A DNA stretch of 64,000 nt from Candidatus Buchananbacteria bacterium. Its GTDB lineage: Bacteria > Patescibacteriota > Patescibacteriia > 2-01-FULL-39-33. The stretch covers positions 182,627-246,626 of the forward strand of contig JBAYFY010000001.1 in the NCBI GenBank assembly GCA_041666945.1. The letters are read 5' to 3'. A model generated the notes under the pieces. It did no database searches. It saw nothing but the letters and a program-made list of their open reading frames with translations, and was not told where the DNA came from. This document shows, in pieces, positions 16,826-54,046 of the stretch. Position numbers and translations under genes: made by a program. Positions within the stretch are counted from its first letter, which is position 1. The number at the start of each line of letters is the position of its first letter.

Positions 16826-17521
16826 ATGAAATTGTCAGTTATTATACCGGTTTATAATGAACGGAAAACTATTTTGGAATTATTGCGCCGGGTTGAAGCG
16901 GTGCCTCTTTCAGGCGTAACCAAAGAAATCATCATCATTGATGACGGCTCCACCGATGGCACAAGAGAAGTCATTTCTGATTTTAGAGATAGATGCACGA
17001 TCATCCTAAAAGATAAAAATGAAGGCAAGGGTTCGGCCATTAAGCGCGGCCTTTCTGCGGCAACCGGCGACTTGCTGATCATCCAAGACGCCGATTTGGA
17101 ATATAACCCGCAAGAATATCAAGAAATTTTAGAGCCGATCATTAACGGCCAGGCCGATGTCGTTTACGGCTCGCGTTTCATCACCAGCAAACCGCACCGC
17201 GTTTTCTTTTTTTGGCATTATCTGGGCAACACTTTTTTGACAATCTTTTCCAATATTATGAGCAATTTGACTTTGACTGACATGGAAACTTGCTATAAGG
17301 CGTTTAATCGTCCGGTTATTGATTATTTAAAAAGCCGCTTGACTGCCAAGAGGTTCGGCGTTGAACCGGAAATTACCGCCTTGATCGCCAAAGGCAAATT
17401 TCGGATTTATGAAGTCGGCATTTCTTATTCCGGCCGCACTTATGAGGAAGGCAAGAAGGTTAATTGGAAAGACGGCCTGGCGGCGGTTTGGTATATTATT
17501 AAATTTAATTTATGGAAATAA
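16826..17521 (+). CDS. GT2 polyprenyl-phosphate sugar synthase (DPM1/GtrB/ArnC-like)
   Basis: SVIIPVYNE, IIIDDGSTDGT, DADLEY; about 230 aa. Confidence 0.85.
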   Translation: MKLSVIIPVYNERKTILELLRRVEAVPLSGVTKEIIIIDDGSTDGTREVISDFRDRCTIILKDKNEGKGSAIKRGLSAATGDLLIIQDADLEYNPQEYQEILEPIINGQADVVYGSRFITSKPHRVFFFWHYLGNTFLTIFSNIMSNLTLTDMETCYKAFNRPVIDYLKSRLTAKRFGVEPEITALIAKGKFRIYEVGISYSGRTYEEGKKVNWKDGLAAVWYIIKFNLWK

Positions 17522-18114
17522 CCAGTCCCGCCGCCCCCACCAGAGGTTACGGCGTGTTAGAGAAATATTTGGCTAAGCGGCGGGCGCAAAAAGTTGACCG
17601 ATTGATTCCCGCGAATTTAAGATCGGGAGCCATTCTTGATATTGGTTGCGGTTCTTATCCTTATTTTTTGACACAGATTAAGTTTGCCGACAAAGTCGGA
17701 TTAGACAAATCGGTGAACGAAGAAGGGATTGCCGGAATCAATCTGAAAAAATATGAATTCAAATCCGGCGACGATTTGCCCGTTGCTCTCGGCGGCTTTA
17801 CCGTTGTAACCATGTTGGCCGTTTTGGAACATCTGGATGAAACAGCGGCTTTAAATGTTTTAACCCAATCTTGCCGGGCGCTTGTTCCCGGCGGCTTGTT
17901 GATTGTAACGACGCCCTGGGGCAAAACCAAGGGTTTATTGACGTTACTGGCCGCGCTTAAGATAGTTTCGCCGGAAGAAATTAACGAGCATCAGCAGTTC
18001 TATAGCCGTCAAGATTTATTCAGGCAGCTTGTTGCCGCCGGTTTTACGGCTGATAAAATTACCATAGGAAGCTTTGAATTAGGTTTAAATTTATATGCCC
18101 TCGCCAGAAAATAA
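17512..18114 (+). CDS. class I SAM-dependent methyltransferase
   Basis: Motif I ILDIGCGSYPY; motif II-like VTMLAVLEHLDE; PGGLLIV. Confidence 0.75.
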   Translation: MEITSPAAPTRGYGVLEKYLAKRRAQKVDRLIPANLRSGAILDIGCGSYPYFLTQIKFADKVGLDKSVNEEGIAGINLKKYEFKSGDDLPVALGGFTVVTMLAVLEHLDETAALNVLTQSCRALVPGGLLIVTTPWGKTKGLLTLLAALKIVSPEEINEHQQFYSRQDLFRQLVAAGFTADKITIGSFELGLNLYALARK

Positions 18115-19180
18115 AAAATTGAAATTATTAATCCTGACCCAAAAAGTAGATAACGCCGACGGCTTACTCGGGTTCTTTCATGATTGGCTTAAAGAATTCG
18201 CCAACAATTTTTCCCAAGTAACCGTTATTTGTTTATTTAAGGGCGGATATGATTTGCCTGGCAATGTCAGGGTTTTATCTTTAGGCAAAGAAGACAAGCC
18301 GTCGCGTTGGCGGTATTTGTGGCGTTTTTATAAATACCTTTGGCTGGTTCGCCGTGATTATGACGCTGTTTTCGTCCATATCAACGTGGTTTACATTATC
18401 CTGGCCGGTTTAATCTGGCGCTGGCAGGGCAAGCCGGTCGGCTTATGGTACGCGCATAAGGCGGTTGATTTGAAATTAAGATTAGCCGAGCCGTTAACCG
18501 ATATGATTTTTACCGCCTCGCCCGAAAGTTTCCGCCTCGCCAGCGCCAAAGTGAAAGTCATCGGCCACGGCATTGATGTTGACAAATTTTCTTTAAAAGA
18601 TTGGGCGGAAGCAAAACAGGACAAAATCAAAATTATCAGCGTCGGCCGGATCAGTGAAATAAAAAATCAATTATTATTAATCAGGGCCGTTGATATTTTA
18701 GCGCATAAATCAGAAATAAAAAATCTAGCTGTGTCTTTTATCGGTTCGCCGCCGAATATTGAGGGTTTGGGTTATGCCGCTTTGCTGAAAGAGGAAGTAA
18801 AGAAGTTACAACTGGAGCCGTACGTTAGCTGGCTGGGCAATATTCCCAACAAGGATTTGCCCCGTTATTATCAACAAGCCGATTTAAGCGTTAATTTATG
18901 CCCCACCGGGGGATTAGACAAGGTGGTCTTGGAATCGCTGGCTTGCGGCGTGCCGGCCATAGTTTATAATCAAACCTTTTCCGCTATCTTGGGCGATTAT
19001 AAGGATTTGTTATTATTGACAAGCGCCGACGCTCAAGAGTTGGCTGAAAAAATCAAAAAAATCGTCGGGCTGGATTTACCCGGCAAACGGACTATGGCTT
19101 CTGATTTGCGCCGCATTGTCGTATCCTCTTACAGCATAAAAAATTTGGTTATTAACATCAGAAAGGCCTATGACAGATAA
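18095..19180 (+). CDS. GT-B glycosyltransferase (GT4-like)
   Basis: C-terminal ISVGRISEIKNQ ... ESLACGVPAIVYN. Confidence 0.6.
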   Translation: MPSPENKKLKLLILTQKVDNADGLLGFFHDWLKEFANNFSQVTVICLFKGGYDLPGNVRVLSLGKEDKPSRWRYLWRFYKYLWLVRRDYDAVFVHINVVYIILAGLIWRWQGKPVGLWYAHKAVDLKLRLAEPLTDMIFTASPESFRLASAKVKVIGHGIDVDKFSLKDWAEAKQDKIKIISVGRISEIKNQLLLIRAVDILAHKSEIKNLAVSFIGSPPNIEGLGYAALLKEEVKKLQLEPYVSWLGNIPNKDLPRYYQQADLSVNLCPTGGLDKVVLESLACGVPAIVYNQTFSAILGDYKDLLLLTSADAQELAEKIKKIVGLDLPGKRTMASDLRRIVVSSYSIKNLVINIRKAYDR

Positions 19181-19904: not shown

Positions 19905-19908
19905 GATT

Positions 19909-20973: not shown

Positions 20974-20975
20974 TT

Positions 20976-24250: not shown

Positions 24251-24259
24251 ACAGCCGAA

Positions 24260-24916: not shown

Positions 24917-24920
24917 TGTT

Positions 24921-25616
24921 ATGAAAATCAATAAACTTTCCATTGTTATCCCGGCTTATAATGAAGCAAAAACCATTGAAGCCATCTTGCAAAGAGTGGC
25001 GGAAGCCGATTTGGGCGTAGCCAAAGAAATCATCGTGATTAATGACGGTTCCAGCGATAATTCCAAGGAGGTGCTGGATCGTTACCGGGATAAATACGTT
25101 ATTATCCATTTCTCGCAAAATCAAGGCAAGGGAGCGGGTGTGGCTGCCGGTTACCAGGTGGCGACTGGCGATTACATCGTGGTGCAGGACGCCGATTTGG
25201 AATATGATCCGAATGATTTGAAGAAATTAATAAACGAAGTGGAAAATTGCGGCGCTCAAGCGGTTTACGGTTCCAGGCGCTTGGGGCTGACCAGAAAGAA
25301 AAGCCCTAAAGCCGGTTGGTTTTATTATTTGGGCGGAGTTTATCTGACCTGGTTGACAAATTTCCTTTATGGCACGGCCATAACCGATGAGGCGACTTGC
25401 TATAAGATGGTCAGCAAGCAAGTTCTGGATAAGATAAACATTAAAGCCAAGGGTTTTGAATTCTGTCCGGAAGTAACGGCTAAAATTTCCCGGCAGGGCG
25501 TTAAAATCTATGAAGTGCCGATCTCTTATATTCCCCGCTCGCAAGAAGAAGGCAAAAAAATAAAACTTCGCGACGGTTTAATCGCCATTTGGACATTAAT
25601 CAAATATCGTTTTTAA
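24921..25616 (+). CDS. GT2 polyprenyl-phosphate sugar synthase (DPM1/GtrB-like), paralog of 16826..17521
   Basis: SIVIPAYNE, VINDGSSDNS, DADLEYD. Confidence 0.85.
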   Translation: MKINKLSIVIPAYNEAKTIEAILQRVAEADLGVAKEIIVINDGSSDNSKEVLDRYRDKYVIIHFSQNQGKGAGVAAGYQVATGDYIVVQDADLEYDPNDLKKLINEVENCGAQAVYGSRRLGLTRKKSPKAGWFYYLGGVYLTWLTNFLYGTAITDEATCYKMVSKQVLDKINIKAKGFEFCPEVTAKISRQGVKIYEVPISYIPRSQEEGKKIKLRDGLIAIWTLIKYRF

Positions 25617-25647
25617 TTTTTATCGTCTTTATTTTTAATTTATCGTT

Positions 25648-27111
25648 ATGAAAATAATTTTAGTCCAACCCCCGCTTACTTTGGAAGAGAGGTATGGAAT
25701 AAAAAGCAAAAGCGGAGGAGAGTCCATTCCCTTGGGGTTGGTATATTTAGCCGCCGCCGCCAGAGCGGCCGGGCATCAAGTGGATATTATTGATGCGGAG
25801 ATTTTAAATTTGAATACGGCCTCGACGGTAGAAAAGATTTTGGCGGCTGATCCCGCCGTTGTCGGTTTTACGGCAGTCACCATTTCAATAGACAACGCGG
25901 CGGCAGTCGCTCGGGAAATAAAAAAAATCAAACCGGAAATAATCACGTTAATCGGCGGCCATCATTTAAGCACGGCGCCGGAGGAGACCCTGAAACTTTA
26001 TCCTCAATTCGATTTGGGAATCATCGGCGAAGGCGAGAAAACTTTGGTGGAGCTGTTAGCGGCATTGGCCCGGGGCGCTTGGGATAAAAATCAGCTAAGG
26101 GAGATTAACGGTTTGATTTTTAAATCCGATGATTCCGATGAATTTATCATTACGGCTCCGCGAGACAGAATTATTGATTTGGACACCTTGCCGCAGCCGG
26201 CTTTTGACCTGTTGCCGGATTTAATCAAATACTCTCCGCCGGTTCACACGGTTAAAAAATTTCCCGCCTCCACCTTAGTCACCTCGCGAGGTTGTCCCGG
26301 CCAATGCACTTTCTGCACCAGAAGCGTTTACGGCAATATCCTGTCATCCCATTCGGCGGAATATATGATGGAATTGGTTTTATTGCTTTATCATAAATAC
26401 GGCATCAGAGAGATCCAATTTCGCGACGACAATTTTACGGTTTTCAAACCGCGCCTTTACAAATTCTGCGAACTGTTGAAAAAGGAAAAATTGGATTTGG
26501 TTTGGACGGCCCTGGCTCGCGTTGATATGGTTGAACCGGAGATGTTTAAAGCGATGAAAGCGGCCGGCTGTTGGCAGGTTTGGTATGGCGTGGAGTCGGG
26601 CAATGAAAATATTTTGAAATTAATCAAAAAAAACACTACCAAGGAACAGATTAGAAACGCCATTAACTGGACGAAGAAAGCGGGAATCGACGTGGGAGCG
26701 TTTTTTATCATGGGTCATCCCGGAGAAACCAAAGAAACGCTGCAGGAAACCATTGATTTTGCCTTAACTTTAAAAATAGACGAATTTCATTGCACCCTCA
26801 TGACGCCCTTGCCCGGTTCGGAGATCAGCGGCAATTACTCCCGCTACGGGACATTTGAAAAAAATTGGAAAAAAATGAATGAATGGGAGCCGGTTTTCGT
26901 GCCCTTCGGCTTAACGAAAGAGGAACTGATAAAATACAACAGATTATTTTTCCGTAAATTTTATTTCCGCCCCCGGATCGTTCTAAATTATATGAAACGC
27001 TTGAGAAGTCCCAAGCATGTTAAAATTTATTTTTTGGGTTTTTTGGCGCTTTGTGAATGGATTATTAGCGGTAAAAAGCGGCAAGAACAGAAAATCGTAT
27101 GTCAACAATAA
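25648..27111 (+). CDS. B12-binding domain radical SAM protein (class B)
   Basis: LPQPAFDLLP; SRGCPGQCTFC; GGHHLS, GEGEKT. Confidence 0.85.
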   Translation: MKIILVQPPLTLEERYGIKSKSGGESIPLGLVYLAAAARAAGHQVDIIDAEILNLNTASTVEKILAADPAVVGFTAVTISIDNAAAVAREIKKIKPEIITLIGGHHLSTAPEETLKLYPQFDLGIIGEGEKTLVELLAALARGAWDKNQLREINGLIFKSDDSDEFIITAPRDRIIDLDTLPQPAFDLLPDLIKYSPPVHTVKKFPASTLVTSRGCPGQCTFCTRSVYGNILSSHSAEYMMELVLLLYHKYGIREIQFRDDNFTVFKPRLYKFCELLKKEKLDLVWTALARVDMVEPEMFKAMKAAGCWQVWYGVESGNENILKLIKKNTTKEQIRNAINWTKKAGIDVGAFFIMGHPGETKETLQETIDFALTLKIDEFHCTLMTPLPGSEISGNYSRYGTFEKNWKKMNEWEPVFVPFGLTKEELIKYNRLFFRKFYFRPRIVLNYMKRLRSPKHVKIYFLGFLALCEWIISGKKRQEQKIVCQQ

Positions 27112-29663
27112 AAAGCATTTTTTCCCGGTACCGATCATGGCTGATTATTGCCGCCGCTTTTTTGGCGGTGCGAATTTTGGTTTTTATCACTTTTTGGCAG
27201 GCCAGCGTAAGTCGGGGCGGTTGGCAGAATTTTTATAACCAAGCCCAGCCGGCGGTCTCCGTGTTGCTGGGTATTTTCCATGATTACTGCGATTGGCATC
27301 CGCCGCTTTATTATATGGCAACTTCCGTTTTATTGCATTGGCTGGGAGGGGAGTGGATGATTTATCTGGCGCAGGTGGCCTTAGCTTTCGTGACTTTATT
27401 CATCGGTTATAAACTGATCCGCTTGTTTTTTAGCGAAAGGATTTCTTTGTTGGTCACTTTTTTAGTCGCCATTGAACCTTATTGGGCTTGGCACAATTTT
27501 TTATTAGTCAGTGAAAATCTCGCCATCCCGCTGTTTTTGGGCGGCGTTTATTATTTTTTGAAATTTTTTCTATTTCCGGAAAATAAGCAATTAATGATTA
27601 GCGGGTTATTGCTGGGCTTGTCTACTTTGGTCAGGCAAAACACCTCGCCTTTGATGGCGATTCTGCCGGTTTTTCTCATCTTGGCCTATGTTTTTCGAAA
27701 AATATTAGCTTTAAAGGAATTGGAGCGGATTAATTGGCGCAAAATAGTTTTAGGCGCCGCCGCTTTTATTTTGGTTTTTGCCGCCGTTATCTCGCCTATT
27801 TTAATCAAGAATAAGATTGTTTATCAACGCTTGACCCTGGTTAATTTATTGGCGACGAATATTTATTTTTATAATCTGCCGGCGTTGATTTCTTATCAGA
27901 AACAAATTCCCTATGCTGATGCCTACAATCTTATCGTTAAGCAAGCTGATGACGCTTTGGGAGCGAATATTGGCAATCAAGGCGACTGCCTGTCGGTTAG
28001 TTTGCCTGAATTCAACCGTGAATTGGATTATTACAGCCAAACGGCCAAAACCTACATCTTAGGTAATTTTGCCGATTACCTCAAAGTGCATTTGATCAGA
28101 ACAGTGCCTTTCTTTTTCCAGCCCGGCTATTTTGAAATGTGGTCGGCTTACACCGGGGAATTTTCCAAACCGGATATTACCGGTTTCATTTTAAACGGCA
28201 ATTGGCAGGGGATTTTTGATTTTCTCAAGCAGATTAATCTTAAATTATTGACGTACTTTTCCGGCATCGCCCTGTGGGGCATCTGTTCCGTCGCCTTGCT
28301 TGCGGCCTTGGTTTACTCGTGTTTTAAAGATCGGGACAAACTGCTGTTTTTCGTTTTTTCGGCCATGATTATCCTTTATACCGCTTTGATGGTGTCGCCT
28401 TTTGTTTTGGCGCGTTATCGTTTGCCGGTTTATATTTTTTTCTTCTCTGCTTTAGCTTATTGCTGCGGCCTGCTTTTGGTCTTTTTGAAAAAGAATAAAC
28501 ATCAGGTGAAAAAAATTATTAAAGCTGTACCGATAATTTCTCCCTTAGCGAAATTATTTTATGATTGGCGCCGCGATAAACTGGCCGACGGCAAGATTAA
28601 AAAATTTATTGAATTGTCGGAACTGCCTTTTAAAACCGTCGCTCCGCCGATTTATGAAATCGGTTATGAGCCGACAATCAAATGCAATTTGCGTTGCAAG
28701 ATGTGCTATCAGGGCGAGAACAGGAATTTGCGCCAGCAGGAACTGTCAACCGAACAAATCCTGGAGGTTTTTAAAAAGATATCCGGTAAAACCAAAGAAA
28801 TAAAACTGGTCGGCGGCGAACCTTTCGCGCGACAGGATATTTTGGAACTGATTGCTTTTTGGGATTCTTTAGGCAAGAGAGTAATCCTCCAGACCAATTG
28901 CACGCTTATTAATGAGGATAATATTGATCGCTTGGCCGAATATAAACATTTGACCGATATTTTAACCTCATTAGACGGTCCCAAGGAATTGCATGATGCC
29001 ATTAGGGGCGTGCCAGGGACCTTTGACAGATTGGAGCGCGCTCTGGGGCTTTTACGGGTCAAGATGCCCCAGGTTCCGATTACTATTTTTGCCACCTTGC
29101 TGATTAATGACAACGTTGATAATTTTTTTGAATTAATCGATACGACCAAAAAATTAGGCATTACCACAATCAATGTTTTGTTTGAGCAGGTTTATTCAGC
29201 GGAAGAGGTCGCTCAAACCAAAAATATTTTTAATCAAGAATTCGGCTGGGAGGACGGCCGCGATTATCGTCTGAATACGCAGGTTCGGAATCCGATTTTC
29301 CCCTCCGATCTTGATGCCGGCGAATTGAAGAAAAAATTAGCTAAAATCAGATCGTATGGCCTTAAAAACGGTTGTTTCGTTAATTTTTCTCCGTTTAATT
29401 ACTACCACAATCTGCCGCAATATCTGGGTCGCCAGCCCGCCAGGCCCTTCTGTTTGAAACTGCTGCAGCCGGAATTGCGCATTAATCAGCGCGGCGAGGT
29501 TGTCTGGTGCGATATTATTGAGAAATCATTTGGCAATCTGTTGGATAAAACCCCGGATGAGATTTGGCTGTCTGATGATTATCAGAAATTCCGCCAGTAT
29601 TTGTTCAAGCATTCATTGTCCGTTTGTTCCAGATGTTGCAAGGCGGTTTATATTAATAATTAA
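27099..29663 (+). CDS. fusion: N-terminal GT-C-like (PMT/ArnT-like) polytopic membrane glycosyltransferase domain + C-terminal radical SAM domain with Cys-rich SPASM/twitch-like tail
   Basis: About 11 TMs in residues 1 to about 470, with an acidic first loop HDYCDWHPPLYY. Then YEPTIKCNLRCKMCYQ, GGEPF, and a C-terminal CxxC/CC cluster. Confidence 0.65.
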   Translation: MSTIKSIFSRYRSWLIIAAAFLAVRILVFITFWQASVSRGGWQNFYNQAQPAVSVLLGIFHDYCDWHPPLYYMATSVLLHWLGGEWMIYLAQVALAFVTLFIGYKLIRLFFSERISLLVTFLVAIEPYWAWHNFLLVSENLAIPLFLGGVYYFLKFFLFPENKQLMISGLLLGLSTLVRQNTSPLMAILPVFLILAYVFRKILALKELERINWRKIVLGAAAFILVFAAVISPILIKNKIVYQRLTLVNLLATNIYFYNLPALISYQKQIPYADAYNLIVKQADDALGANIGNQGDCLSVSLPEFNRELDYYSQTAKTYILGNFADYLKVHLIRTVPFFFQPGYFEMWSAYTGEFSKPDITGFILNGNWQGIFDFLKQINLKLLTYFSGIALWGICSVALLAALVYSCFKDRDKLLFFVFSAMIILYTALMVSPFVLARYRLPVYIFFFSALAYCCGLLLVFLKKNKHQVKKIIKAVPIISPLAKLFYDWRRDKLADGKIKKFIELSELPFKTVAPPIYEIGYEPTIKCNLRCKMCYQGENRNLRQQELSTEQILEVFKKISGKTKEIKLVGGEPFARQDILELIAFWDSLGKRVILQTNCTLINEDNIDRLAEYKHLTDILTSLDGPKELHDAIRGVPGTFDRLERALGLLRVKMPQVPITIFATLLINDNVDNFFELIDTTKKLGITTINVLFEQVYSAEEVAQTKNIFNQEFGWEDGRDYRLNTQVRNPIFPSDLDAGELKKKLAKIRSYGLKNGCFVNFSPFNYYHNLPQYLGRQPARPFCLKLLQPELRINQRGEVVWCDIIEKSFGNLLDKTPDEIWLSDDYQKFRQYLFKHSLSVCSRCCKAVYINN

Positions 29664-29676
29664 TCTTAAAGGCAAA

Positions 29677-31026: not shown

Positions 31027-31027
31027 T

Positions 31028-32443: not shown

Positions 32444-32445
32444 TT

Positions 32446-40187: not shown

Positions 40188-40190
40188 TCT

Positions 40191-41267: not shown

Positions 41268-41287
41268 ATTATAAATAATCTAAAGTT

Positions 41288-43117
41288 ATGTGGCAACAGT
41301 CAAATAATCGTTTTAACCGATTGATTATCTTAATTTTACTGCCCGTGGTTTTTTTTATGGCGGCCGCCTTTTGGTATTTCCCGGTTTTTTTCAAAGGCAG
41401 CACCGCTCAGCCCGCTGAAGCGGAAAATTTTATCTTGGCCAGGAATCTGGTCCGGACCGGGTTTTACGGCATGGAAGACAGCCGCAATATCGTTTTAGCG
41501 CCGTCCTTAGTCAGTCAGCACGCCCAGCCCAGCACCCAGGGAAATAAGTTCACTACTTGGTCTTATGCCGCCTTGTTCAAATACATCGGCCTGCCCGATT
41601 TTAATGTGTTGATAATTATTGCCGTGATTATCCAAGCGCTGGCTTTAGTTTTATTTGCCGCCGTTGTTTTTTATTTATTCGGCTGGGAAGCGGCTATAAT
41701 TTTTTCTTTGGTTTATATCCTATTGCCGTTTAATTCCCAGATGGTTCAGACAATCGGCACTTATGAATTTGCCATGTTATATTTCGCAATTTTTTCCGTT
41801 TTGTTTTTTCTGGGCCGAAAAACCAAGGGTAAATATATTTTTTTGCCTTTAGCCGGTATTTTTCTATCGCTATCTTGTTTGGCGCGGGAAGTGATGTTTT
41901 TATTCCCCCCCGTGTTTTTCTGTTGGCTTATTTTTCAACCCCAGCAACAGCCCGTTGCCGCTTCAAAGATTTTATCGTCCCTGCAGTCGGTTCGGTCATG
42001 GTTTAAAACAACCGCGACTAATCTTAAAAAAAATGTCACTAAAATTAATTTAATAAACGCCGGCCTGGTTTTTGTTCCTTTCTTCGTCATGCTGGCGGTT
42101 TTTTGGTTGCCGGCGATAGTCGGTCTTCGCGGCACCAATGATTATTTCAGGGTTTTTGTCGCTAATAAAACACAGACCGGTAATTGGTCGGAATTTAATT
42201 TTTACGGCCATCTTTTCCCCGATCCTTATACCTTTTATTTCGATCAAAAAACCGTACTGGATAAATTCAATTCAGACATTGCCAGCCGGGGAATATTGGA
42301 ACGCATTGATTTAATCAAGGTGGGAGCCAATATCGGCATCCGCCCCATTAACTTAATGGAGAGAATGATTGTGGGGTCGAATAATTTACTCGCCCATCTT
42401 TCCCGCTTTGTTGCTTTGGAGTATATCGGCGGATCGTTGTTTTTCATTTTAATGCTGTTGGGCATTAAAGAATTGAGCCGTCGCGATAAGAATTTAACCG
42501 TTCTTTTTGCCAGTTGGCTGGTGTTCTCCATCTTAATTTCCAGTTACGTTGTTTTGGCTTCGCGCGACCATTTAATGGACTGGGGTTGGGCGATTGCGCT
42601 TTTTATCAGTTTTGGTTTAACGGGTTTAGTAAAAATTATTAGCGATCGTTATGTCGCCAACAAATTCAGCCGATTAGCCGGCTGGTTAGCCATTTTCTTG
42701 CTTATTTACGGCCTGATCCAGGCGAATCATGTTTATTGGGGGCGAGGATATGATGATAACGTCAACTTAAAGATCGTCTATTTGGCAGAACAGGTTCGTT
42801 CGCGGACCGAAGCCATCAAGCCGGAGGAAACGGTAGTCGTGGGCAATAGGGCGTTGCACCCCCTGTTGAATTATTTGACGGGAGTGTCAGCGGTTTATTT
42901 TTCTCCCGAGACCGTCGGCCGTTTACTGCAAGAGCAGAAACTTCAGTCGGCATTTGAAGCTTATAACGTGAAATACGTGATTGGTTATGACAGTGAATTG
43001 GCGCAACAAATCTCTTCCAGCAGCCAAGCAATAAATATCGCTGATTGGCCCCGGGCCGGAGTAGTGGAAGCCAAAGCCAGCCCCGGGAAAATGTGGTTTC
43101 TTAATTTGATAAAATAA
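41288..43117 (+). CDS. large polytopic membrane protein of unknown function (possible GT-C-like transferase)
   Basis: About 12 TMs with loops in between. No soluble catalytic motifs recognised. Confidence 0.45.
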   Translation: MWQQSNNRFNRLIILILLPVVFFMAAAFWYFPVFFKGSTAQPAEAENFILARNLVRTGFYGMEDSRNIVLAPSLVSQHAQPSTQGNKFTTWSYAALFKYIGLPDFNVLIIIAVIIQALALVLFAAVVFYLFGWEAAIIFSLVYILLPFNSQMVQTIGTYEFAMLYFAIFSVLFFLGRKTKGKYIFLPLAGIFLSLSCLAREVMFLFPPVFFCWLIFQPQQQPVAASKILSSLQSVRSWFKTTATNLKKNVTKINLINAGLVFVPFFVMLAVFWLPAIVGLRGTNDYFRVFVANKTQTGNWSEFNFYGHLFPDPYTFYFDQKTVLDKFNSDIASRGILERIDLIKVGANIGIRPINLMERMIVGSNNLLAHLSRFVALEYIGGSLFFILMLLGIKELSRRDKNLTVLFASWLVFSILISSYVVLASRDHLMDWGWAIALFISFGLTGLVKIISDRYVANKFSRLAGWLAIFLLIYGLIQANHVYWGRGYDDNVNLKIVYLAEQVRSRTEAIKPEETVVVGNRALHPLLNYLTGVSAVYFSPETVGRLLQEQKLQSAFEAYNVKYVIGYDSELAQQISSSSQAINIADWPRAGVVEAKASPGKMWFLNLIK

Positions 43118-44091
43118 TGATAAAAATTGGAACCAGGTGGAAAAAAATAATTTCTTTAATCATAACTTTGGCTTTAGTGGCCCTGCTTTTAACGCAGATT
43201 GATTTTACCCAAGCCAAAGATATTATTTTAAAAATATCGTGGCCCTACCTTTTAATCGCGTTTATTTTTTATTTTGTTGGCGTTTGTTTGCGGGCTTGGA
43301 GATGGCAAATTTTGATTCTTTCCAAGAAAGTTGGTTTTTTAAATTCTTTAAAAATCACTTTAGGTTATACTTTTTTCTGCAACTTGCTGCCCTTTAGAAG
43401 CGGCGAGTTAAGTTTTGTTTATTTTATAAAAAAACGCGAAAACATAGCCGTGGCTGAAGGCCTTAGTGTCTTGTTGATAGCCAGATTTTTTGATCTTTTA
43501 GCGGTGGCCGTTTCGTTTTTAGCCGGTTTTATTTTGCTTAATCCCGGCTATATTCCGCCCAATAAGATTTATTTAAGCTGCATTGTATTGGGTTTAGGCA
43601 CGATTGCCGTTTTATTTTACCTTGATCAACTGATTAAAGCGGCTATCGTTTTAATGGACAAGGCAGGATTGACTAAGTTTAAATTCGGTGCTAAGCTAAT
43701 CATCAAATTGAAAGAAGCTATAACCAGTATCAAAGCAATTCGCTCCCTGCCCGTTTATTTGATTAATTTATTGATTTCATTTTTATGGTTAGCGTCCGCC
43801 TCTTTAATGGTTATAGCATTCTTTCGTTCCTTAAATATCGATTTTGGCTGGTTAAAGGTAACCTTGGGGCTTATTTTCAGCCAGTTGATAAGCTTTCTGC
43901 CCGTTCAAGGACTGTGGGATTTCGGCACTTATGAAACCGGCTGGGCCATTGGTTTTGGCTTATTGGGCTTGAATAAGGAAGCAGCGATTATTTCCGGTTT
44001 TATGGTGCACTTATTCAGCTTGGCCTATCTTTTAATTTTGATTATTATCTTTTTACCCGTCAGAAGTATTTTAAAAAAGACCAATTTATGA
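43117..44091 (+). CDS. flippase-like / lysylphosphatidylglycerol-synthase-TM-region family membrane protein
   Basis: 8 TMs. N-terminal WKKIISLIITLALVALLL...ISWPYLLIAFIFYFVGVCLRAWRWQIL is typical of the family. ATGA overlaps with both neighbours. Confidence 0.6.
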   Translation: MIKIGTRWKKIISLIITLALVALLLTQIDFTQAKDIILKISWPYLLIAFIFYFVGVCLRAWRWQILILSKKVGFLNSLKITLGYTFFCNLLPFRSGELSFVYFIKKRENIAVAEGLSVLLIARFFDLLAVAVSFLAGFILLNPGYIPPNKIYLSCIVLGLGTIAVLFYLDQLIKAAIVLMDKAGLTKFKFGAKLIIKLKEAITSIKAIRSLPVYLINLLISFLWLASASLMVIAFFRSLNIDFGWLKVTLGLIFSQLISFLPVQGLWDFGTYETGWAIGFGLLGLNKEAAIISGFMVHLFSLAYLLILIIIFLPVRSILKKTNL

Positions 44092-45515: not shown

Positions 45516-45528
45516 GATCAGATAAGAT

Positions 45529-46947: not shown

Positions 46948-46951
46948 AATT

Positions 46952-49473: not shown

Positions 49474-49487
49474 AAAAATTTAATGTT

Positions 49488-50414
49488 TCATTGGCGATTA
49501 TTAATCTCTCTTCTTAGGGCGGAAATCTGATCGGCAATCAAGCCGAAAAAGAAAATCAGTATTGAAGATAACGATATTAATACCGTGCTGGCGCTGATTC
49601 TGCCTTGATTAAGAATATCAAAGATCAATAAACTTCCGCCCAAGAGGAACAATAGCAAGCCAATGGGCAAAAATATTCTTAAGGGCGAGAAAAGCATGAT
49701 TAAACGCAGAATTAAAAATAAGTAAGTTATAAATTCCCTCGGTTTAACCATGCTTTGCCCGCTTTCTCTTTTGTTTATTTGAATGGGTATGAATTTAACA
49801 TTCAGGCCTTCACGCAAAAAGGCGAACAGGGTGGTGGTTGAGCAAGAAAAGCCATTAGGCAAAATATGAGTGAATCTTAAGAATTCTTTCTTCTTTATCA
49901 ACCTTAAACCGCAATTGAAATCGGCTATCTTTTTACCCAATAAATAAATGGCCAGCAAGTGGATTAATTTTTTACCCGGTTGGCGAATCCAGGGTCCTTG
50001 ATAGCCCATTCGTTCGCCCGATATCAAATCGAAATTTTCCGTATAAACCAGCATTCTTTTGATGTCTTCGGCCTGATGCTGGCCGTCAGCGTCAAAAAAC
50101 ACCAGCCAGTCATATTGAGCGTTCTTGGCCCCGGTTTTTAAACTGGCGCCATAGCCCTTATTGTAAGGATGATTAATCGTCTTTATCCTGTCATCTTGCT
50201 TTAATATTTCTCCGCTCTGATCCGTTGAACCGTCGTTAACGACAATAATTTCGTGGATTATTTGATTTCCAATCAATTCTTTGGTTAAGGAATCAATAAC
50301 CTTGGGCAGGGCTTCGCCGTCGTTAAAATTAGGAATGATTATTGATAATGCCGGAAATGTATTCATAATTATCGCTATTATTTGGTCTCTATTGGCCTCG
50401 GCCGCCCAGAACAA
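49488..50414 (-). CDS. GT2 polyprenyl-phosphate sugar synthase with C-terminal TM helices (GtrB/ArnC-like)
   Basis: SIIIPNFND, VVNDGSTDQS, DADGQHQ. Two C-terminal TMs. Confidence 0.85.
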   Translation of the reverse strand: MFWAAEANRDQIIAIIMNTFPALSIIIPNFNDGEALPKVIDSLTKELIGNQIIHEIIVVNDGSTDQSGEILKQDDRIKTINHPYNKGYGASLKTGAKNAQYDWLVFFDADGQHQAEDIKRMLVYTENFDLISGERMGYQGPWIRQPGKKLIHLLAIYLLGKKIADFNCGLRLIKKKEFLRFTHILPNGFSCSTTTLFAFLREGLNVKFIPIQINKRESGQSMVKPREFITYLFLILRLIMLFSPLRIFLPIGLLLFLLGGSLLIFDILNQGRISASTVLISLSSILIFFFGLIADQISALRREINNRQ

Positions 50415-51738: not shown

Positions 51739-51782
51739 TTAACAGAACTATTTATACCATATTTAGATGAAAAAAACAAGTT

Positions 51783-51809
51783 TTGACTTAATTTAATTTA
51801 TGTTATAAT
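51783..51809 (+). promoter_or_regulatory. sigma70-like promoter for the GtrA/UXS/GT2 array
   Basis: TTGACT (51783-51788), then a 15-nt spacer, then TATAAT (51804-51809); about 28 nt upstream of the 51837 start. Confidence 0.45.
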
Positions 51810-51836
51810 GAAATAGGGTTAAATGCCCCGATTTTT

Positions 51837-52265
51837 ATGTTAAGCATGATTAAAGAAAAATTTTGCCAACTGCCGTTTTTCCGCCGGCCAATTTTCAGGC
51901 AATTCATCAAATTTTGCCTTGTCGGCGCTTCTAATTTTTTTATTGATTTTTCAGTGTATTTGCTTTTTACGCGTTTATTCGGCTTGCATTACCTTCCCGC
52001 CTCGGTGATTTCTTTCGTTGTCGCCGTAACCTGGAGCTTTGAATGGAATCGCAAGTGGACTTTCCGTTATCGCAACGAGGGTTTGAGATGGCAATATATT
52101 AAATTTTTTATTGCCAATATCATCAGCTTGTCGCTGAATCTTGGTCTTTTGAGTTTATTGATTGAATTGGTCCATATCCCTGATTTGTGGGCCAAAGCCG
52201 TTTCCTCGCTTATAGTCGCCGTCTTTAATTTCAGTTTGAACCGCTTTTGGACTTTTAAAAGATAG
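51837..52265 (+). CDS. GtrA family membrane protein
   Basis: 142 aa, 4 TMs. FIKFCLVGASNFFIDFSVYLLF is the GtrA signature. Confidence 0.8.
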   Translation: MLSMIKEKFCQLPFFRRPIFRQFIKFCLVGASNFFIDFSVYLLFTRLFGLHYLPASVISFVVAVTWSFEWNRKWTFRYRNEGLRWQYIKFFIANIISLSLNLGLLSLLIELVHIPDLWAKAVSSLIVAVFNFSLNRFWTFKR

Positions 52266-52338
52266 TTGTTCGGTAAGGGCAAATCATGTTATAATTTATG
52301 TATGAACTAAATATCCATTTAAGGAATAAATTAAATCT

Positions 52339-53379
52339 ATGCCAGTCAAAAAGGCGATATTTGACAAAAAAAACATCTTAGTCGTTGGCGGAGCCGGATT
52401 TGTCGGTTCCAATCTTTGCGATGAATTGGTCAAAACCGCCAAAGTCATCTGCTTGGATAACTTTATTACCGGCGATTCCGCCAATATCTCTCATTTATTG
52501 GCCAATCCCGATTTTAAATTTATTAACCACGACATTATAAACCCCATTAATCTGGAGAGCCGTCCGGAATTGGCCGAATTCAAAGTTGCTTTCCAGGGAG
52601 TGCAAGAAATTTATTTTTTGGCCTCGCCGACTTCACCCAAGGCCTATGTCGCTCATCCGGTAGAAACGCTGTTGGTTAACTCGGTCGGTCTGCGTCACGC
52701 GTTGGATTTGGCGGTTAAGTATGAGGCCTCGATTTTATTCGCCTCCGCTCCGGCGGTTTACGGCACCGGCACCGGCCCCATGCCGATTAAAGAGGATTAT
52801 ATCGGTCCGGTTGACCAGCTTGGCCCGCGGGCTTGTTACGCCGAAGCCAAGCGTTTCGGCGAGTCGCTGGTTAATAATTACCGTTTGGCTTATAAGCTTA
52901 ATACGAAAATCGCCAGAATTTTCAATTGTTACGGCCCGCGGCTGGGATTAACCGACGGCCGCATGATTCCGGAAATGATTTCTGCCGCTTACAGCGGAAC
53001 GCCGCTTACCATTTACGGCCGCGAAAGCGAGTTCGCTTCTTATTTTTATATCACTGATTTGATCCGCGGATTAATGAAACTCATGGAGAGCGGGGAAAGC
53101 GGTCCGGTGAATATGGCGTCAGAATGGAAAATGGGCGTAACGGAAATCGCCAAAAAGATAATCGCCTTGACCAACTCCGTATCCGCGATTGAATTTAAGG
53201 ATCGGCCGGCTCATTTTGAGGCCCAACCCTTGGCCAATATCTCTTTAGCTAAAGAAAAATTGGGCTGGTTTCCGATAATCCTAATGGATGAAGGCCTGCA
53301 AAAAACCATTGATTACTTAAGCGCGCAAAAGGGGATAAGGCGGCCTGAAGCAACTCTTAGTTCCGTCCAGACGGTTTAA
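52339..53379 (+). CDS. NAD-dependent epimerase/dehydratase (extended SDR), probably UDP-glucuronate decarboxylase-like
   Basis: ILVVGGAGFVGSNLCDELV; catalytic YAEAK (YxxxK). Confidence 0.75.
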   Translation: MPVKKAIFDKKNILVVGGAGFVGSNLCDELVKTAKVICLDNFITGDSANISHLLANPDFKFINHDIINPINLESRPELAEFKVAFQGVQEIYFLASPTSPKAYVAHPVETLLVNSVGLRHALDLAVKYEASILFASAPAVYGTGTGPMPIKEDYIGPVDQLGPRACYAEAKRFGESLVNNYRLAYKLNTKIARIFNCYGPRLGLTDGRMIPEMISAAYSGTPLTIYGRESEFASYFYITDLIRGLMKLMESGESGPVNMASEWKMGVTEIAKKIIALTNSVSAIEFKDRPAHFEAQPLANISLAKEKLGWFPIILMDEGLQKTIDYLSAQKGIRRPEATLSSVQTV

Positions 53380-53383
53380 ACTT

Positions 53384-54046
53384 ATGAAATTGGCGATAAT
53401 TATCCCGGCTTACAATGAAGCGGAAAAAATAAGCTCTGTTGTTTTAGCGGTCAAAGCCGCTCAGCCCGAATCCTTGATTATAGTTGTGGATGACGGTTCC
53501 GGCGATGCGACGGCTGAACTGGCCGCTTCGGCCGGCGCTGATGTTTTACGGCATAAAATCAACCGCGGGCAGGGAGCGGCGCTTAAGACCGGCGTAGAAT
53601 ACGCTTTTCGCCGCTACATTGACGCGGCTGTTTTTTTTGACGCGGACGGGCAGATGGAGCCGTCGGAGATTAAATTGCTGGCAGCCGAACTGTCCCAAGG
53701 TTATGATGTGGTGCTGGGTTCCAGAAATTTGGGCCGCGCCCTGAATATGCCGCTGGCTAAAAAAATCGCCAAGAAATTAGCTTTGTATTTCACCCGCTTT
53801 ACCACTGGTTTGAAATTGACTGATACGCACAACGGTTTTCAGGCCTGGACCAGCGGATCGTTAAAACGCTTGAATTTAGGTCAAGATCGTCAGGCCTATG
53901 CCAGCGAGGTGTTGCACGAAATTAAGCGCCTTAAGTTAAAATACTGCGAGGTGCCGGTGACGATTCGTTATACCGGCTATTCCATAAAAAAGGGCCAAAG
54001 CATCTGGAATGCGTTTGGGATTTTGTGGGACCTGTTAATAAAGTAA
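53384..54046 (+). CDS. GT2 polyprenyl-phosphate sugar synthase (DPM1-like)
   Basis: AIIIPAYNE, VVDDGSGDAT, DADGQ. Confidence 0.8.
   Translation: MKLAIIIPAYNEAEKISSVVLAVKAAQPESLIIVVDDGSGDATAELAASAGADVLRHKINRGQGAALKTGVEYAFRRYIDAAVFFDADGQMEPSEIKLLAAELSQGYDVVLGSRNLGRALNMPLAKKIAKKLALYFTRFTTGLKLTDTHNGFQAWTSGSLKRLNLGQDRQAYASEVLHEIKRLKLKYCEVPVTIRYTGYSIKKGQSIWNAFGILWDLLIK

What the first reader, a model, noticed from the sequence alone, without database searches (positions are those of the whole stretch)
16826..54046. Four DPM1/GtrB-like GT2 synthases plus GtrA and GT-C-like partners point to extracytoplasmic, lipid-linked glycosylation steps
Four small GT2 proteins of the polyprenyl-phosphate-sugar synthase type sit in the locus (16826..17521, 24921..25616, 49488..50414, 53384..54046). 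Alongside them are a GtrA-family protein (51837..52265), a DUF2304 protein, a flippase-like protein (43117..44091) and two or three large polytopic GT-C-like proteins (C-terminus of 13136..15334, N-terminus of 27099..29663, and 41288..43117). This is the gene logic of GtrABC, ArnC/ArnT or Ppm1/Pmt systems. Sugars are loaded onto polyprenyl phosphate in the cytoplasm, flipped, and then transferred outside the membrane. Having multiple such modules in parallel suggests several different sugars are added after export.
Basis: inference. Interest (0 to 1): 0.5.

Follow-up and report, generated by a model that had tools for sequence, protein, structure and literature searches.

The report
Lipid-linked surface glycosylation modules, radical-SAM-coupled
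A tiny-genome candidate-phyla (Buchananbacteria) bacterium carries four enzymes that load sugars onto a membrane lipid carrier, with matching flippase-like proteins and three outside-facing transferases, which is a known way to decorate the cell surface; unusually, these modules are fused or tightly linked to radical-SAM enzymes.

Summary

Fusion proteins and gene neighbourhoods in other Patescibacteria pair them:
- GT2 16826 with the mini GT-C tail of 13136-15334, plus GtrA.
- GT2 24921 with the GT-C head of 27099-29663.
- GT2 49488 with GT-C 41288 and the flippase-like 43117.
- GT2 53384 with DUF2304, a GacI/GacJ- or PpgS/Rv3632-type synthase.

One relative fuses GT-C, GtrA and GT2 in a single chain. 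The window also holds a PGT, Wzx and Wzy_C, so the GT-Cs are most likely decorating enzymes rather than polymerases.

The core idea is therefore a known kind, multi-component transmembrane glycosylation, as in Lactococcus with three pairs and one flippase. What is new is the radical-SAM coupling: GT-C-SPASM fusions, GT2-GT-C-SPASM triple fusions, and a conserved B12 radical-SAM gene beside GT2 and GT-C. This suggests radical tailoring of the lipid-linked sugar. That step is inferred, not shown.

The parts
13136..15334 (+). Fusion protein of 732 aa. The N-terminal part is a cytoplasmic GT4. The C-terminal part is a 'mini' GT-C (aa ~371-732, window 14246-15334). This is the module A transferase.
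15338..16810 (+). B12-binding radical SAM enzyme lying between the mini GT-C and GT2_A. It is the module A-associated radical SAM.
   Evidence: Pfam gives B12-binding plus Radical_SAM. The CX3CX2C motif is intact. It is the reciprocal best paralog of 25648-27111. Its ortholog (75% identity) again lies directly upstream of the GT2_A ortholog in L014.
16826..17521 (+). GT2_A: a soluble polyprenyl-phosphate-sugar synthase-type GT2 of 231 aa. Module A.
   Evidence: PF00535 at 3e-35. Best PDB hits are DPMS 5mlz at 3e-21 and ArnC. Best NCBIfam match is AglJ at 1e-32. DAD motif at residue 88. No TM helix. The protein ends in a Trp/Ile/Lys-rich helix. Orthologs are adjacent to a mini GT-C, or fused to GtrA, in L004, L005 and L009.
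24921..25616 (+). GT2_B: a soluble polyprenyl-phosphate-sugar synthase-type GT2 of 231 aa. Module B.
   Evidence: PF00535 at 4e-34. It aligns with DPMS residues 24-230, including the DADL motif. It is 52-58% identical, end to end, to the N-terminal GT2 domain of the GT2+GT-C(+rSAM) fusion proteins P0007, P0009, P0010 and P0027.
25648..27111 (+). B12-binding radical SAM enzyme lying between GT2_B and the GT-C. It is the module B-associated radical SAM.
   Evidence: Pfam match. CX3CX2C motif present. Orthologs at 49-71% identity sit next to the GT2_B and GT-C genes in L009, L011 and L015.
27099..29663 (+). Fusion protein of 854 aa. The N-terminal part is a GT-C (aa ~1-465, about 10 TM helices). 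The C-terminal part is a radical SAM/SPASM domain (aa ~520-854). This is the module B transferase.
   Evidence: Pfam gives PMT_2 at 30.7 bits (above the 26.1 gathering score), Radical_SAM at 3e-23 and SPASM at 5e-8. The motif CNLRCKMC is at residue 529. Asp65 is invariant (17/17) within CDWHPP in the first outer loop. Hydropathy indicates about 10 TM helices with the N-terminus inside, so the radical SAM domain would be cytoplasmic. The same architecture occurs in P0002-P0006 and P0096, and the triple fusion occurs in P0007-P0009.
39231..41267 (+). A non-DPM1-type GT2 (39231-40187) followed by a stand-alone SPASM radical SAM (40191-41267). This conserved pair lies upstream of GT-C 41288.
   Evidence: Pfam matches. 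The pair is conserved in L003 and L013 and is fused into one 682-aa protein in L012.
41288..43117 (+). GT-C glycosyltransferase of 609 aa with a small C-terminal alpha/beta domain. This is the module C transferase.
43117..44091 (+). MprF-type (LPG_synthase_TM) flippase-like membrane protein. Its start codon overlaps the stop codon of the GT-C gene. It is the candidate flippase of module C.
   Evidence: PF03706 at 1e-32. TIGR00374 at 48.5 bits against a 43.2 cutoff. At least 6 TM helices. A homolog accompanies the same GT-C family in L003, L012, L013 and the P0044 contig.
49488..50414 (-). GT2_C: a GtrB/ArnC-architecture synthase with a GT2 domain and two C-terminal TM helices. The probable true start is at 50366, giving 292 aa. 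Module C.
   Evidence: PF00535 at 1e-27. It aligns with ArnC 9hwj over residues 22-291, including the TM region, at 2e-20. TM helices at 247-265 and 275-293. DAD motif present. GT2s of similar size (290-302 aa) accompany the A2 GT-C in L003, L012, L013 and the P0044 contig; blastp against the window proteins, run only for the L012 and L013 copies, gave GT2_C as best match in L013 (40% identity) but GT2_D narrowly ahead of GT2_C in L012.
51837..52265 (+). GtrA-family small membrane protein. It is the candidate flippase for polyprenyl-phosphate sugars, probably shared between modules A, B and D.
   Evidence: PF04138 at 1e-32. GtrA is fused to the mini GT-C in P0063 and to GT2 in L005, and it is adjacent to a GT2_A-type gene in L004.
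53384..54449 (+). GT2_D (53384-54046, soluble, 220 aa) plus a DUF2304 membrane protein (54114-54449, 111 aa). Together they form a two-part polyprenyl-phosphate-HexNAc synthase of the GacI/GacJ or PpgS/Rv3632 type. Module D.
   Evidence: NCBIfam PpgS gives 157 bits over the full length, which is below the equivalog cutoff of 370. DUF2304 matches at 1e-25. GacJ is a DUF2304 protein, it activates GacI, and Rv3632 is its homolog (bioRxiv 10.1101/180810; PMC6487176).
50389..51738 (-). Context gene: the initiating phosphoglycosyl transferase (Bac_transf). Together with Wzx (35210-36544) and a Wzy_C protein (4894-7134) it makes up a Wzx/Wzy-type assembly line that can supply the acceptor glycan.
   Evidence: Pfam gives Bac_transf at 1e-67, Polysacc_synt at 2e-16 and Wzy_C at 9e-19.

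Best explanation
The window is part of a cell-surface glycan locus of about 50 kb from a Candidatus Buchananbacteria (Patescibacteria/CPR) genome. A Wzx/Wzy-type backbone is present: a phosphoglycosyl transferase, many GT4s, Wzx and Wzy_C. Alongside it are four polyprenyl-phosphate-sugar synthases. Three of them pair with their own GT-C transferase, giving parallel multi-component transmembrane glycosylation modules.

- Module A: GT2 16826 with the mini GT-C tail of 13136-15334 (GtrA-linked in relatives).
- Module B: GT2 24921 with the GT-C head of 27099-29663.
- Module C: the membrane-anchored GT2 49488 with GT-C 41288 and the MprF-like flippase-like protein 43117.
- Module D: GT2 53384 with DUF2304, a GacI/GacJ-type synthase with no dedicated GT-C in the window.

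Proposed mechanism. Each GT2 transfers one sugar from a nucleotide sugar to polyprenyl phosphate on the cytoplasmic face. GtrA or the MprF-like protein flips the lipid-linked sugar. The GT-C then transfers it outside the membrane onto an already exported acceptor. The most likely acceptor is the Wzx/Wzy-made polymer; a surface protein is also possible.

Shown here: family and fold membership, catalytic motifs, topology logic, gene fusions and conserved neighbourhoods.
Inferred: the lipid acceptor, the flipping step, the sugars and the acceptor.

A further, less certain inference (about 0.3-0.4) concerns the radical SAM enzymes. These are the B12-dependent enzymes wedged beside the GT2s and the SPASM domain fused to the GT-C. 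They may modify the lipid-linked sugar on the cytoplasmic face before it is flipped.
For: GT2 clade. The best solved relatives of all four GT2s are polyprenyl-phosphate glycosyltransferases (DPMS 5mlz, ArnC, GtrB sll0501), with scores 18-34 bits above other GT2s. The best NCBIfam matches are AglJ, ArnC, PpgS and PgfS. Of the two other GT2s in the window, the one scanned (54433-55485) instead best matches MftF, EpsD and PgaC; 39231-40187 was not scanned and is only 23-30% identical to the four over short stretches. All four have a DAD motif. GT2_C has the two-TM tail of GtrB and ArnC. The three soluble GT2s end in a membrane-interface-like helix, which in the fusion proteins runs straight into TM1 of the GT-C.

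Rosetta-stone fusions:
- GT2+GT-C: P0010, P0027-32, P0153, P0191.
- GtrA+GT-C: P0063, P0115.
- GT-C+GtrA+GT2: P0196.
- GT4+GT-C: P0221.

Neighbourhoods. Evidence comes from L003, L004, L005, L009, L011, L012, L013, L014 and L015.

Wzy_C, Wzx and a PGT are all present, so a separate polymerase or ligase already exists.

Precedents. Lactococcus lactis has three GT-A/GT-C pairs served by one GtrA flippase, and GacI works with GacJ (PMC8035078). GacJ is a DUF2304 protein.
Against: - No biochemical data exist for any of these proteins.
- All NCBIfam equivalog cutoffs are missed by a wide margin.
- Two of the three GT-Cs fail the Pfam threshold on their own.
- Neither single sequences nor profiles found any solved structure.
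- Profile-profile links between the three GT-C families are only moderate or absent (66%, 74% and 0.5%).
- No structure model was made for the 27099 GT-C, so its topology rests on hydropathy alone.
- Family A2 has no invariant Asp in the first outer loop, only a Glu or acidic residue in 22/24 sequences.
- In the window the partner genes are not adjacent. GtrA is 34 kb from module A, and GT2_C is 6 kb from its GT-C on the opposite strand.
- A role for an LPG_synthase_TM protein in flipping polyprenyl-phosphate sugars has no experimental precedent that I could find.
Confidence: 0.8

Rival explanations
1. This is the same lipid-linked machinery, but it works as a protein O-glycosylation system of the Ppm1/Pmt type. 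In this reading the GT-Cs transfer sugars from polyprenyl phosphate onto exported proteins such as pilins, S-layer proteins or other surface proteins, and not onto the Wzx/Wzy-made polysaccharide.
Confidence: 0.2
2. The small GT2s are ordinary Leloir enzymes that extend the polyprenyl-diphosphate-linked repeat unit. The GT-C proteins then act on polyprenyl-diphosphate-oligosaccharides, as oligosaccharyltransferases, ligases or polymerases. In this reading there is no polyprenyl-monophosphate-sugar route.
Against: The closest solved and curated relatives of all four GT2s are monophosphate-sugar synthases, whereas the other GT2 that was scanned against NCBIfam (54433-55485) is not. GT2, GtrA and GT-C are fused into single chains, and a GtrA-GT2 fusion of the DPMS type also occurs. 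The DUF2304 partner is specific to GacI/PpgS-type synthases. A Wzy_C protein already covers the polymerase or ligase role. The GT-Cs lack the large C-terminal periplasmic domain of oligosaccharyltransferases.
Confidence: 0.1
3. The GT-C domains are catalytically inactive membrane anchors or scaffolds. Their only role would be to hold cytoplasmic enzymes (GT4, GT2, radical SAM) at the membrane, as proposed for the membrane domain of Ppm1.
For: All three occur in, or have relatives in, fusions with cytoplasmic enzymes. Two of them miss the Pfam threshold.
Against: Stand-alone versions are the commonest form of every family. The invariant residues, including the outer-loop Asp, mostly lie on the predicted outer face by my reading, which is unnecessary for an anchor. 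The fold is complete, with 342 of 362 residues aligned to Pmt4.
Confidence: 0.05

Closest known systems
Multi-component (three-component) transmembrane glycosylation systems: GtrA/GtrB/GtrC of Shigella and Salmonella, CsbB/GtcA/YfhO of Bacillus and Staphylococcus, and CsdAB, CsdCD and CsdEF plus CflA of Lactococcus lactis (PMC8035078)
   Same: A GT-A-fold GT2 makes a polyprenyl-phosphate sugar, a small flippase moves it across the membrane, and a polytopic GT-C transfers it outside. Several GT2/GT-C pairs run in parallel with one GtrA, as in L. lactis. The system sits beside a polysaccharide assembly locus.
   Different: The host is a CPR bacterium. Three of the four synthases are soluble. The GT-Cs belong to divergent families that standard thresholds do not detect. 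One GT-C is fused to a GT4 and one to a radical SAM/SPASM domain. B12 radical SAM genes are interleaved with the modules. One module has an MprF-type protein as its candidate flippase in place of GtrA.
GacI/GacJ (Streptococcus pyogenes) and PpgS/Rv3632 (Mycobacterium tuberculosis): polyprenyl-phosphate-HexNAc synthases with a DUF2304 activator
   Same: A soluble GT2 of about 220 aa is followed by a DUF2304 membrane protein of about 111 aa (53384-54449). The PpgS model is the best NCBIfam hit and covers the full length. GacJ is a DUF2304 protein and Rv3632 is its homolog.
   Different: The score of 157 bits is far below the PpgS equivalog cutoff of 370, so the sugar specificity is unknown. The cognate GT-C (GacL or Rv3779 in the known systems) is not identifiable for this module.
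ArnC/ArnD/ArnE-F/ArnT, and the GT136 pentofuranose systems with auxiliary epimerases (PMC11127046)
   Same: A synthase, a flippase and a GT-C are joined by an extra enzyme that alters the sugar between its synthesis and its transfer. GT2_C aligns with ArnC over its full length, including the TM helices.
   Different: The proposed tailoring enzymes here are radical SAM proteins (B12-binding and SPASM types), not a deformylase or an epimerase. Their substrate is unproven.
HpnI/HpnK/HpnJ/HpnL hopanoid head-group pathway
   Same: It combines a GT2, a polysaccharide-deacetylase-type enzyme, a B12-binding radical SAM enzyme thought to act on a lipid-bound amino sugar (PMC13459092), and, from my own recollection and not checked here, an LPG_synthase_TM-family membrane protein (HpnL). 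HpnJ is the top or near-top NCBIfam match of the window's B12 radical SAM proteins.
   Different: The scores (156-257 bits) are far below the HpnJ cutoff of 577. No squalene-hopene cyclase or other hopanoid genes are in the window. The lipid here would be a polyprenyl phosphate.

Membership tests
Polyprenyl-phosphate glycosyltransferases (DPM1/GtrB/ArnC clade of GT2) | GT-A-fold GT2 catalytic domain with a DXD motif | tested here: met
   PF00535 matches at E 1e-22 to 3e-35 for all four. A DAD motif is present at residues 86-108 in all four and aligns with the DADL motif of P. furiosus DPMS.
Polyprenyl-phosphate glycosyltransferases (DPM1/GtrB/ArnC clade of GT2) | Closer to known polyprenyl-phosphate synthases than to other GT2 enzymes | tested here: met
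   The top PDB hits for all four are DPMS, ArnC and GtrB. The top NCBIfam hits are AglJ, ArnC, PpgS and PgfS. The control GT2 54433 instead best matches MftF, EpsD and PgaC.
Polyprenyl-phosphate glycosyltransferases (DPM1/GtrB/ArnC clade of GT2) | Membrane attachment through C-terminal TM helices, a fused membrane domain or a small partner protein | tested here: inconclusive
   This is met for 49488 (two TM helices) and for 53384 (DUF2304 neighbour). ORFs 16826 and 24921 have no TM helix and only a C-terminal interface-like helix. Their orthologous domains are fused to GT-C or GtrA in relatives.
Polyprenyl-phosphate glycosyltransferases (DPM1/GtrB/ArnC clade of GT2) | Score above the cutoff of a named equivalog (ArnC, AglJ, PpgS or PgfS) | tested here: not met
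   The best scores are 77-157 bits against cutoffs of 325-529. These proteins are clade members, not orthologs of any characterised enzyme.
Polyprenyl-phosphate glycosyltransferases (DPM1/GtrB/ArnC clade of GT2) | Transfers a sugar to polyprenyl monophosphate | not testable with these tools
   This needs an enzyme assay.
GT-C fold glycosyltransferases (PMT_2 / ArnT-PMT-like group) | Pfam PMT_2 gathering score | tested here: inconclusive
   ORF 27099 scores 30.7 bits, above the 26.1 cutoff. ORFs 41288 (18.5 bits) and 13136 (19.5 to 21.4 bits) are below it. Among their homologs, 10/24 and 25/36 match PMT_2 at E<0.01, and no other family recurs.
GT-C fold glycosyltransferases (PMT_2 / ArnT-PMT-like group) | GT-C fold | tested here: met
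GT-C fold glycosyltransferases (PMT_2 / ArnT-PMT-like group) | Conserved acidic residue in the first extracytoplasmic loop | tested here: met
   A1 has D65 in 17/17 sequences, A3 has D39 in 36/36, and A2 has an acidic residue at E63 in 22/24. Structural equivalence to the catalytic Asp of ArnT, PglB or PMT was not checked by superposition.
GT-C fold glycosyltransferases (PMT_2 / ArnT-PMT-like group) | N-terminus in the cytoplasm, consistent with the fused cytoplasmic domains | tested here: met
   GT4 or GT2 domains precede TM1. The A1 domain has about 10 hydropathy peaks and a Lys-rich segment after the last one, which places the radical SAM domain inside the cell. This rests on hydropathy only.
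GtrA-family flippase | PF04138 domain in a small protein with 3-4 TM helices | tested here: met
   The match scores 113 bits against a cutoff of 26.1. The protein is 142 aa with at least 3 hydrophobic helices. Flipping activity cannot be tested here.
MprF-type flippase-like domain (LPG_synthase_TM, TIGR00374) | Family model above its cutoff and a polytopic membrane protein | tested here: met
   PF03706 scores 113.8 bits against 33.4, and TIGR00374 scores 48.5 against 43.2. At least 6 TM helices. Whether it flips polyprenyl-phosphate sugars is not testable here and has no known precedent.
GacI/GacJ - PpgS/Rv3632 two-part synthase | A soluble GT2 immediately followed by a DUF2304 membrane protein | tested here: met
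   ORFs 53384-54046 and 54114-54449 are separated by a 67-nt gap. DUF2304 scores 90 bits against a cutoff of 25.5.
Multi-component transmembrane glycosylation system | Genetic linkage of the synthase, flippase and GT-C | tested here: met
   The evidence is the set of fusions P0196, P0115, P0063, P0153, P0191 and P0010/27-32, together with adjacency in L004, L005, L009, L011, L013 and L015.

The most novel reading that the evidence does not exclude
In these CPR bacteria, radical SAM enzymes are built into lipid-linked glycosylation modules. A B12-dependent enzyme is encoded beside the GT2 synthase, and a SPASM-type domain is fused to the cytoplasmic end of the GT-C. In some relatives GT2, GT-C and radical SAM form a single chain. 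Under this reading, these enzymes carry out radical chemistry, such as C-methylation, epimerisation or ring rearrangement, on the polyprenyl-phosphate-bound sugar before it is flipped and transferred. That would be a new class of tailoring step for lipid-linked sugar donors, and a source of unusual sugars on CPR cell surfaces.
Probability: 0.3. Interest if true: 0.75.

Novelty: new variant of a known kind. Interest (0 to 1): 0.55.

Why it matters
Patescibacteria live attached to other cells and have genomes of about 1 Mb. Their surface chemistry probably decides host recognition, yet it is almost unstudied. This window shows that such a genome spends about 50 kb on a glycan locus. That locus contains three or four parallel extracytoplasmic glycosylation modules and twelve radical SAM domains.

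The pairing of each synthase with its GT-C, supported by natural fusion proteins, gives a ready-made parts list for heterologous reconstitution.

If the radical SAM enzymes do act on the lipid-linked sugars, three things follow. The known chemistry of polyprenyl-phosphate sugar donors would be extended. The cobalamin dependence of these organisms would be explained. Mini GT-C enzymes of about 350 aa would become available as minimal models of the fold.

Tried and rejected
- Sequence searches of the solved-structure library with the three GT-C regions found nothing, either as single sequences or as profiles. Fold comparison was needed.
- Profile-profile comparison between the three GT-C families gave only 66%, 74% and 0.5% probability. 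I do not claim they are close paralogs of each other.
- I considered that one of the large membrane proteins might be the Wzy polymerase. I rejected this as the main reading because a Wzy_C protein is present at 4894-7134 and every top fold match is an ArnT, PMT, ALG or STT3-type GT-C enzyme.
- I asked whether the GT4+GT-C fusion in 13136-15334 is an assembly artefact. The same 732-aa gene call is on record, and an independent GT4+GT-C fusion exists (P0221). However, the orthologous GT4 is separate in L008 and L010, so the fusion is lineage-specific.
- The promoter and terminator scan of 44000-56500 did no better than shuffled sequence.
- The genome-contig scan with A1 returned only 5 loci, so no statistical co-occurrence test was possible.
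- The afdb50 fold library was unavailable.
- Five literature searches for radical SAM combined with GT-C, CPR or polysaccharide loci found nothing relevant. This is weak evidence of novelty, because the library is partial.

Full report
**Source and setting.** The 854-aa protein encoded at 27099-29663 is found by exact look-up on a 300,510-bp metagenome contig (ena:ERZ27249449:k141_1081614). NCBI names it as a protein of a Candidatus Buchananbacteria MAG. The window is therefore from a Patescibacteria/CPR genome. From about 4894 to 55485 it is almost entirely a glycan locus. It contains a Wzy_C protein, eight GT4s, a GT9, Wzx, a Bac_transf phosphoglycosyl transferase, two deacetylases, class-I methyltransferases, a FemAB-family protein and six GT2s. 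It also contains ten B12-binding radical SAM genes and two SPASM radical SAM domains. A 957,791-bp Patescibacteria contig carries a syntenic copy of the region corresponding to window 31000-53000 (L003).

**The four GT2s.**
- Against all solved structures, the best hits of every one are the polyprenyl-phosphate glycosyltransferases: P. furiosus DPMS (5mlz), ArnC (9hwj, 9bhc, 8vxh) and GtrB (sll0501). Other GT2s score clearly lower.
- In NCBIfam the top models are AglJ, ArnC, PpgS and PgfS.
- Of the two other GT2s in the window, 54433-55485 (the one scanned against NCBIfam) best matches MftF, EpsD and PgaC, so the result is not a generic GT2 effect; 39231-40187 groups with it (30% identity over the full length) and away from the four.
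- All four carry DAD, which aligns with the DADL motif of DPMS.
- None has a processive-synthase extension.
- Only 49488-50414 has the two C-terminal TM helices of GtrB and ArnC, and it aligns with ArnC through that region. Its start is probably the ATG at 50366, giving 292 aa like the L003 ortholog.
- The other three are soluble proteins of 220-231 aa that end in a Trp/Ile/Leu/Lys-rich helix.
- All scores are far below the equivalog cutoffs, so these are clade members of unknown sugar specificity.

**The accessory membrane proteins.** GtrA (51837-52265) and DUF2304 (54114-54449) are clear Pfam members. GT2 53384-54046 gives its best NCBIfam score to PpgS (157 bits, full length) and is followed after 67 nt by the DUF2304 gene. 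GacJ of S. pyogenes is a DUF2304 protein that binds and activates the GlcNAc-P-undecaprenol synthase GacI. Its M. tuberculosis homolog Rv3632 stimulates PpgS (bioRxiv 10.1101/180810; PMC6487176). This pair is therefore a two-part synthase of that type. ORF 43117-44091 is an LPG_synthase_TM (MprF flippase-domain) family member and passes NCBIfam's 'flippase-like domain' model.

**The three GT-C proteins.**
- The N-terminal half of 27099-29663 passes the PMT_2 gathering score. The other two do not. No solved structure is found by sequence or by profile.
- I collected homologs and built three alignments: A1 (GT-C of 27099), A2 (41288) and A3 (the C-terminal domain of 13136). PMT_2 is the only recurrent Pfam family among their members, in 10/24 for A2 and 25/36 for A3.
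- AlphaFold models from A2 and A3 are confident: pLDDT 86 with pTM 0.87, and pLDDT 93 with pTM 0.92.
- The 13136 tail is a minimal GT-C of about 360 aa, and 342 of its residues superpose on Pmt4.
- Each family keeps an acidic residue in the first outer loop: D65 in 17/17 (motif CDWHPP), D39 in 36/36, and E63 acidic in 22/24.
- In A1, most of the 53 invariant residues fall in predicted outer loops, by my reading of the invariant list against the hydropathy peaks rather than a computed count.
- Hydropathy indicates about 10 TM helices with a Lys-rich segment after the last one. With the N-terminus inside, this places the fused radical SAM domain in the cytoplasm, where it must be.

**Who works with whom.** Natural fusions and gene neighbourhoods give the following pairing.
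1. GT2_B and the A1 GT-C.
   - GT2_B (24921) is 52-58% identical, end to end, to the N-terminal domain of proteins whose next domain is an A1-type GT-C. These are P0010 and P0027-32 (about 700 aa) and P0007-9 (about 1080 aa, with the radical SAM/SPASM domain as well).
   - In L009 and L011 the order GT2_B, B12 radical SAM (25648 type), GT-C is kept, followed in L009, where the sequence continues, by a separate SPASM radical SAM gene. In Falkowbacteria the unit is reduced to a GT2-GT-C fusion plus that same B12 radical SAM (L015).
2. GT2_A and the mini GT-C.
   - GT2_A (16826; 44% identical to GT2_B) has orthologs directly upstream of a stand-alone mini GT-C (L009), next to GtrA and one gene from a mini GT-C (L004), or fused to GtrA and adjacent to a mini GT-C (L005).
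   - P0063 is a GtrA-mini-GT-C fusion.
3. The A2 GT-C and GT2_C. The A2 GT-C keeps company with an LPG_synthase_TM gene, a B12 radical SAM gene and a 290-302-aa GT2 in L003, L012, L013 and the P0044 contig. Blastp against the window proteins, run only for the L012 and L013 copies, gave GT2_C as best match in L013 and GT2_D narrowly ahead of GT2_C in L012.
4. The wider A1 family. An exhaustive profile search of 1.84 billion representatives gave 65 hits at E<1e-30 and 8,883 at E<1e-3. The family includes a GT-C+GtrA+GT2 single chain (P0196), a chain with GtrA and PMT_2 (matched in two stretches, the best one after GtrA) (P0115), further GT2+GT-C fusions (P0153, P0191) and a GT4+GT-C fusion (P0221).

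These fusions are the strongest evidence that the three component types act in one pathway.

**Comparison with known systems.** This is the logic of three-component, now 'multi-component transmembrane', glycosylation. A GT-A synthase makes C55-P-sugar, a flippase moves it, and a GT-C transfers it outside the membrane. Variants are known in which a soluble synthase needs a small membrane partner. Lactococcus lactis runs three GT-A/GT-C pairs with a single GtrA-type flippase (PMC8035078). Systems with other flippase families, and with auxiliary enzymes that diversify the transferred sugar, are also known (PMC11127046).

**What is unusual.**
- The A1 GT-C was examined in nine independent contexts beyond the window: L008-L011 and L014-L017.
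  - In three (L008, and L014 with the triple fusion) plus the window itself, the GT-C is fused to a radical SAM/SPASM domain.
  - In L009, L010, L011, L015 and L016 it is immediately next to a radical SAM gene.
  - In L017 a SPASM radical SAM gene lies 5 kb upstream in the same gene string.

- The two B12 enzymes that sit next to GT2_A and GT2_B (15338 and 25648) are reciprocal best paralogs, as are the two GT2s themselves. This fits duplication of a GT2 plus B12 radical SAM unit. The 15338-type gene is again upstream of GT2_A in L014.
- GT2 39231 and the SPASM enzyme 40191 are fused into one protein in L012.
- All twelve radical SAM domains keep the CX3CX2C motif.
- Their nearest curated families are HpnJ and BchE, with scores far below the cutoffs. 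HpnJ is thought to rearrange a lipid-bound glucosamine (PMC13459092).

I infer, at about 0.3-0.4, that these enzymes modify the polyprenyl-phosphate sugar before it is flipped. They could equally act on nucleotide sugars or on the growing repeat unit. I found no paper describing such fusions in the held library.

**Limits.** The study has the following gaps.
- No enzyme activity, sugar identity or acceptor is known.
- The 27099 GT-C was not modelled.
- The flippase assignments are by family only.
- Module D has no identifiable GT-C.
- The context sample is small and was chosen by homology, so it is not a statistical survey.

Noticed in passing
window 11682-46947: There are ten B12-binding radical SAM genes, starting at 11682, 15338, 20976, 25648, 29677, 31028, 33662, 37786 and 44088, plus 45529 on the minus strand. 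There are also two SPASM radical SAM domains (the C-terminus of 27099-29663, and 40191-41267). All have an intact CX3CX2C motif. Their best NCBIfam matches are HpnJ and BchE, far below the cutoffs. This is an exceptional density for a genome of about 1 Mb that presumably cannot make cobalamin.
   Followed up: partly
window 20976-23135: A single 719-aa protein fuses a B12-binding radical SAM enzyme to a class-I SAM methyltransferase (MetW/Methyltransf_23). It is 80% conserved in L008.
   Followed up: no
window 39231-41267; L012 2247-4295: A non-DPM1 GT2 and the following SPASM radical SAM gene are separate in the window, in L003 and in L013. In another Buchananbacteria genome (L012) they are fused into one 682-aa protein. 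This is a second kind of glycosyltransferase-radical SAM coupling.
   Followed up: partly
window 32446-33606; L016 5765-6940 and 11291-12451: GT9 (heptosyltransferase-family) genes occur in these CPR glycan loci, and CPR bacteria are not expected to make LPS. Their role is unknown.
   Followed up: no
window 46952-48785 (minus strand): A FemAB-family protein is paired with a DUF3473 polysaccharide deacetylase. The FemAB protein's best match is the XrtA/PEP-CTERM-associated TIGR03019 model (165 bits, below the 260 cutoff). This pairing is typical of PEP-CTERM exopolysaccharide loci, and it is conserved in L003.
   Followed up: no
window 8403-9266: A UDP-glucose/GDP-mannose dehydrogenase-like ORF is only 287 aa and starts with TTG. 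It has the N-terminal and central domains but no match to the C-terminal domain. It may be truncated or a pseudogene.
   Followed up: no
window 29500-31026: The longest-ORF start (TTG at 29500) overlaps the preceding gene by 164 nt. The database gene call starts at 29677 (449 aa), which is the more likely start.
   Followed up: yes
L015 7001-10785 (Falkowbacteria): This is the minimal version of module B: a GT2-GT-C fusion followed only by a 25648-type B12 radical SAM (49% identity). A squalene-hopene-cyclase-like repeat protein and DUF4430 genes lie next to it.
   Followed up: partly
window 13136-15334 compared with L008, L009 and L010: The GT4+mini-GT-C fusion is lineage-specific. The orthologous GT4 stands alone in L008 and L010, and the mini GT-C stands alone in L009. 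An independent GT4+GT-C fusion (P0221) exists elsewhere.
   Followed up: yes
window 249-3941: A HlyD-like adaptor, an ABC ATPase and a MacB/FtsX-type permease form a tripartite-pump-like operon upstream of the glycan locus, in an organism that has no outer membrane.
   Followed up: no
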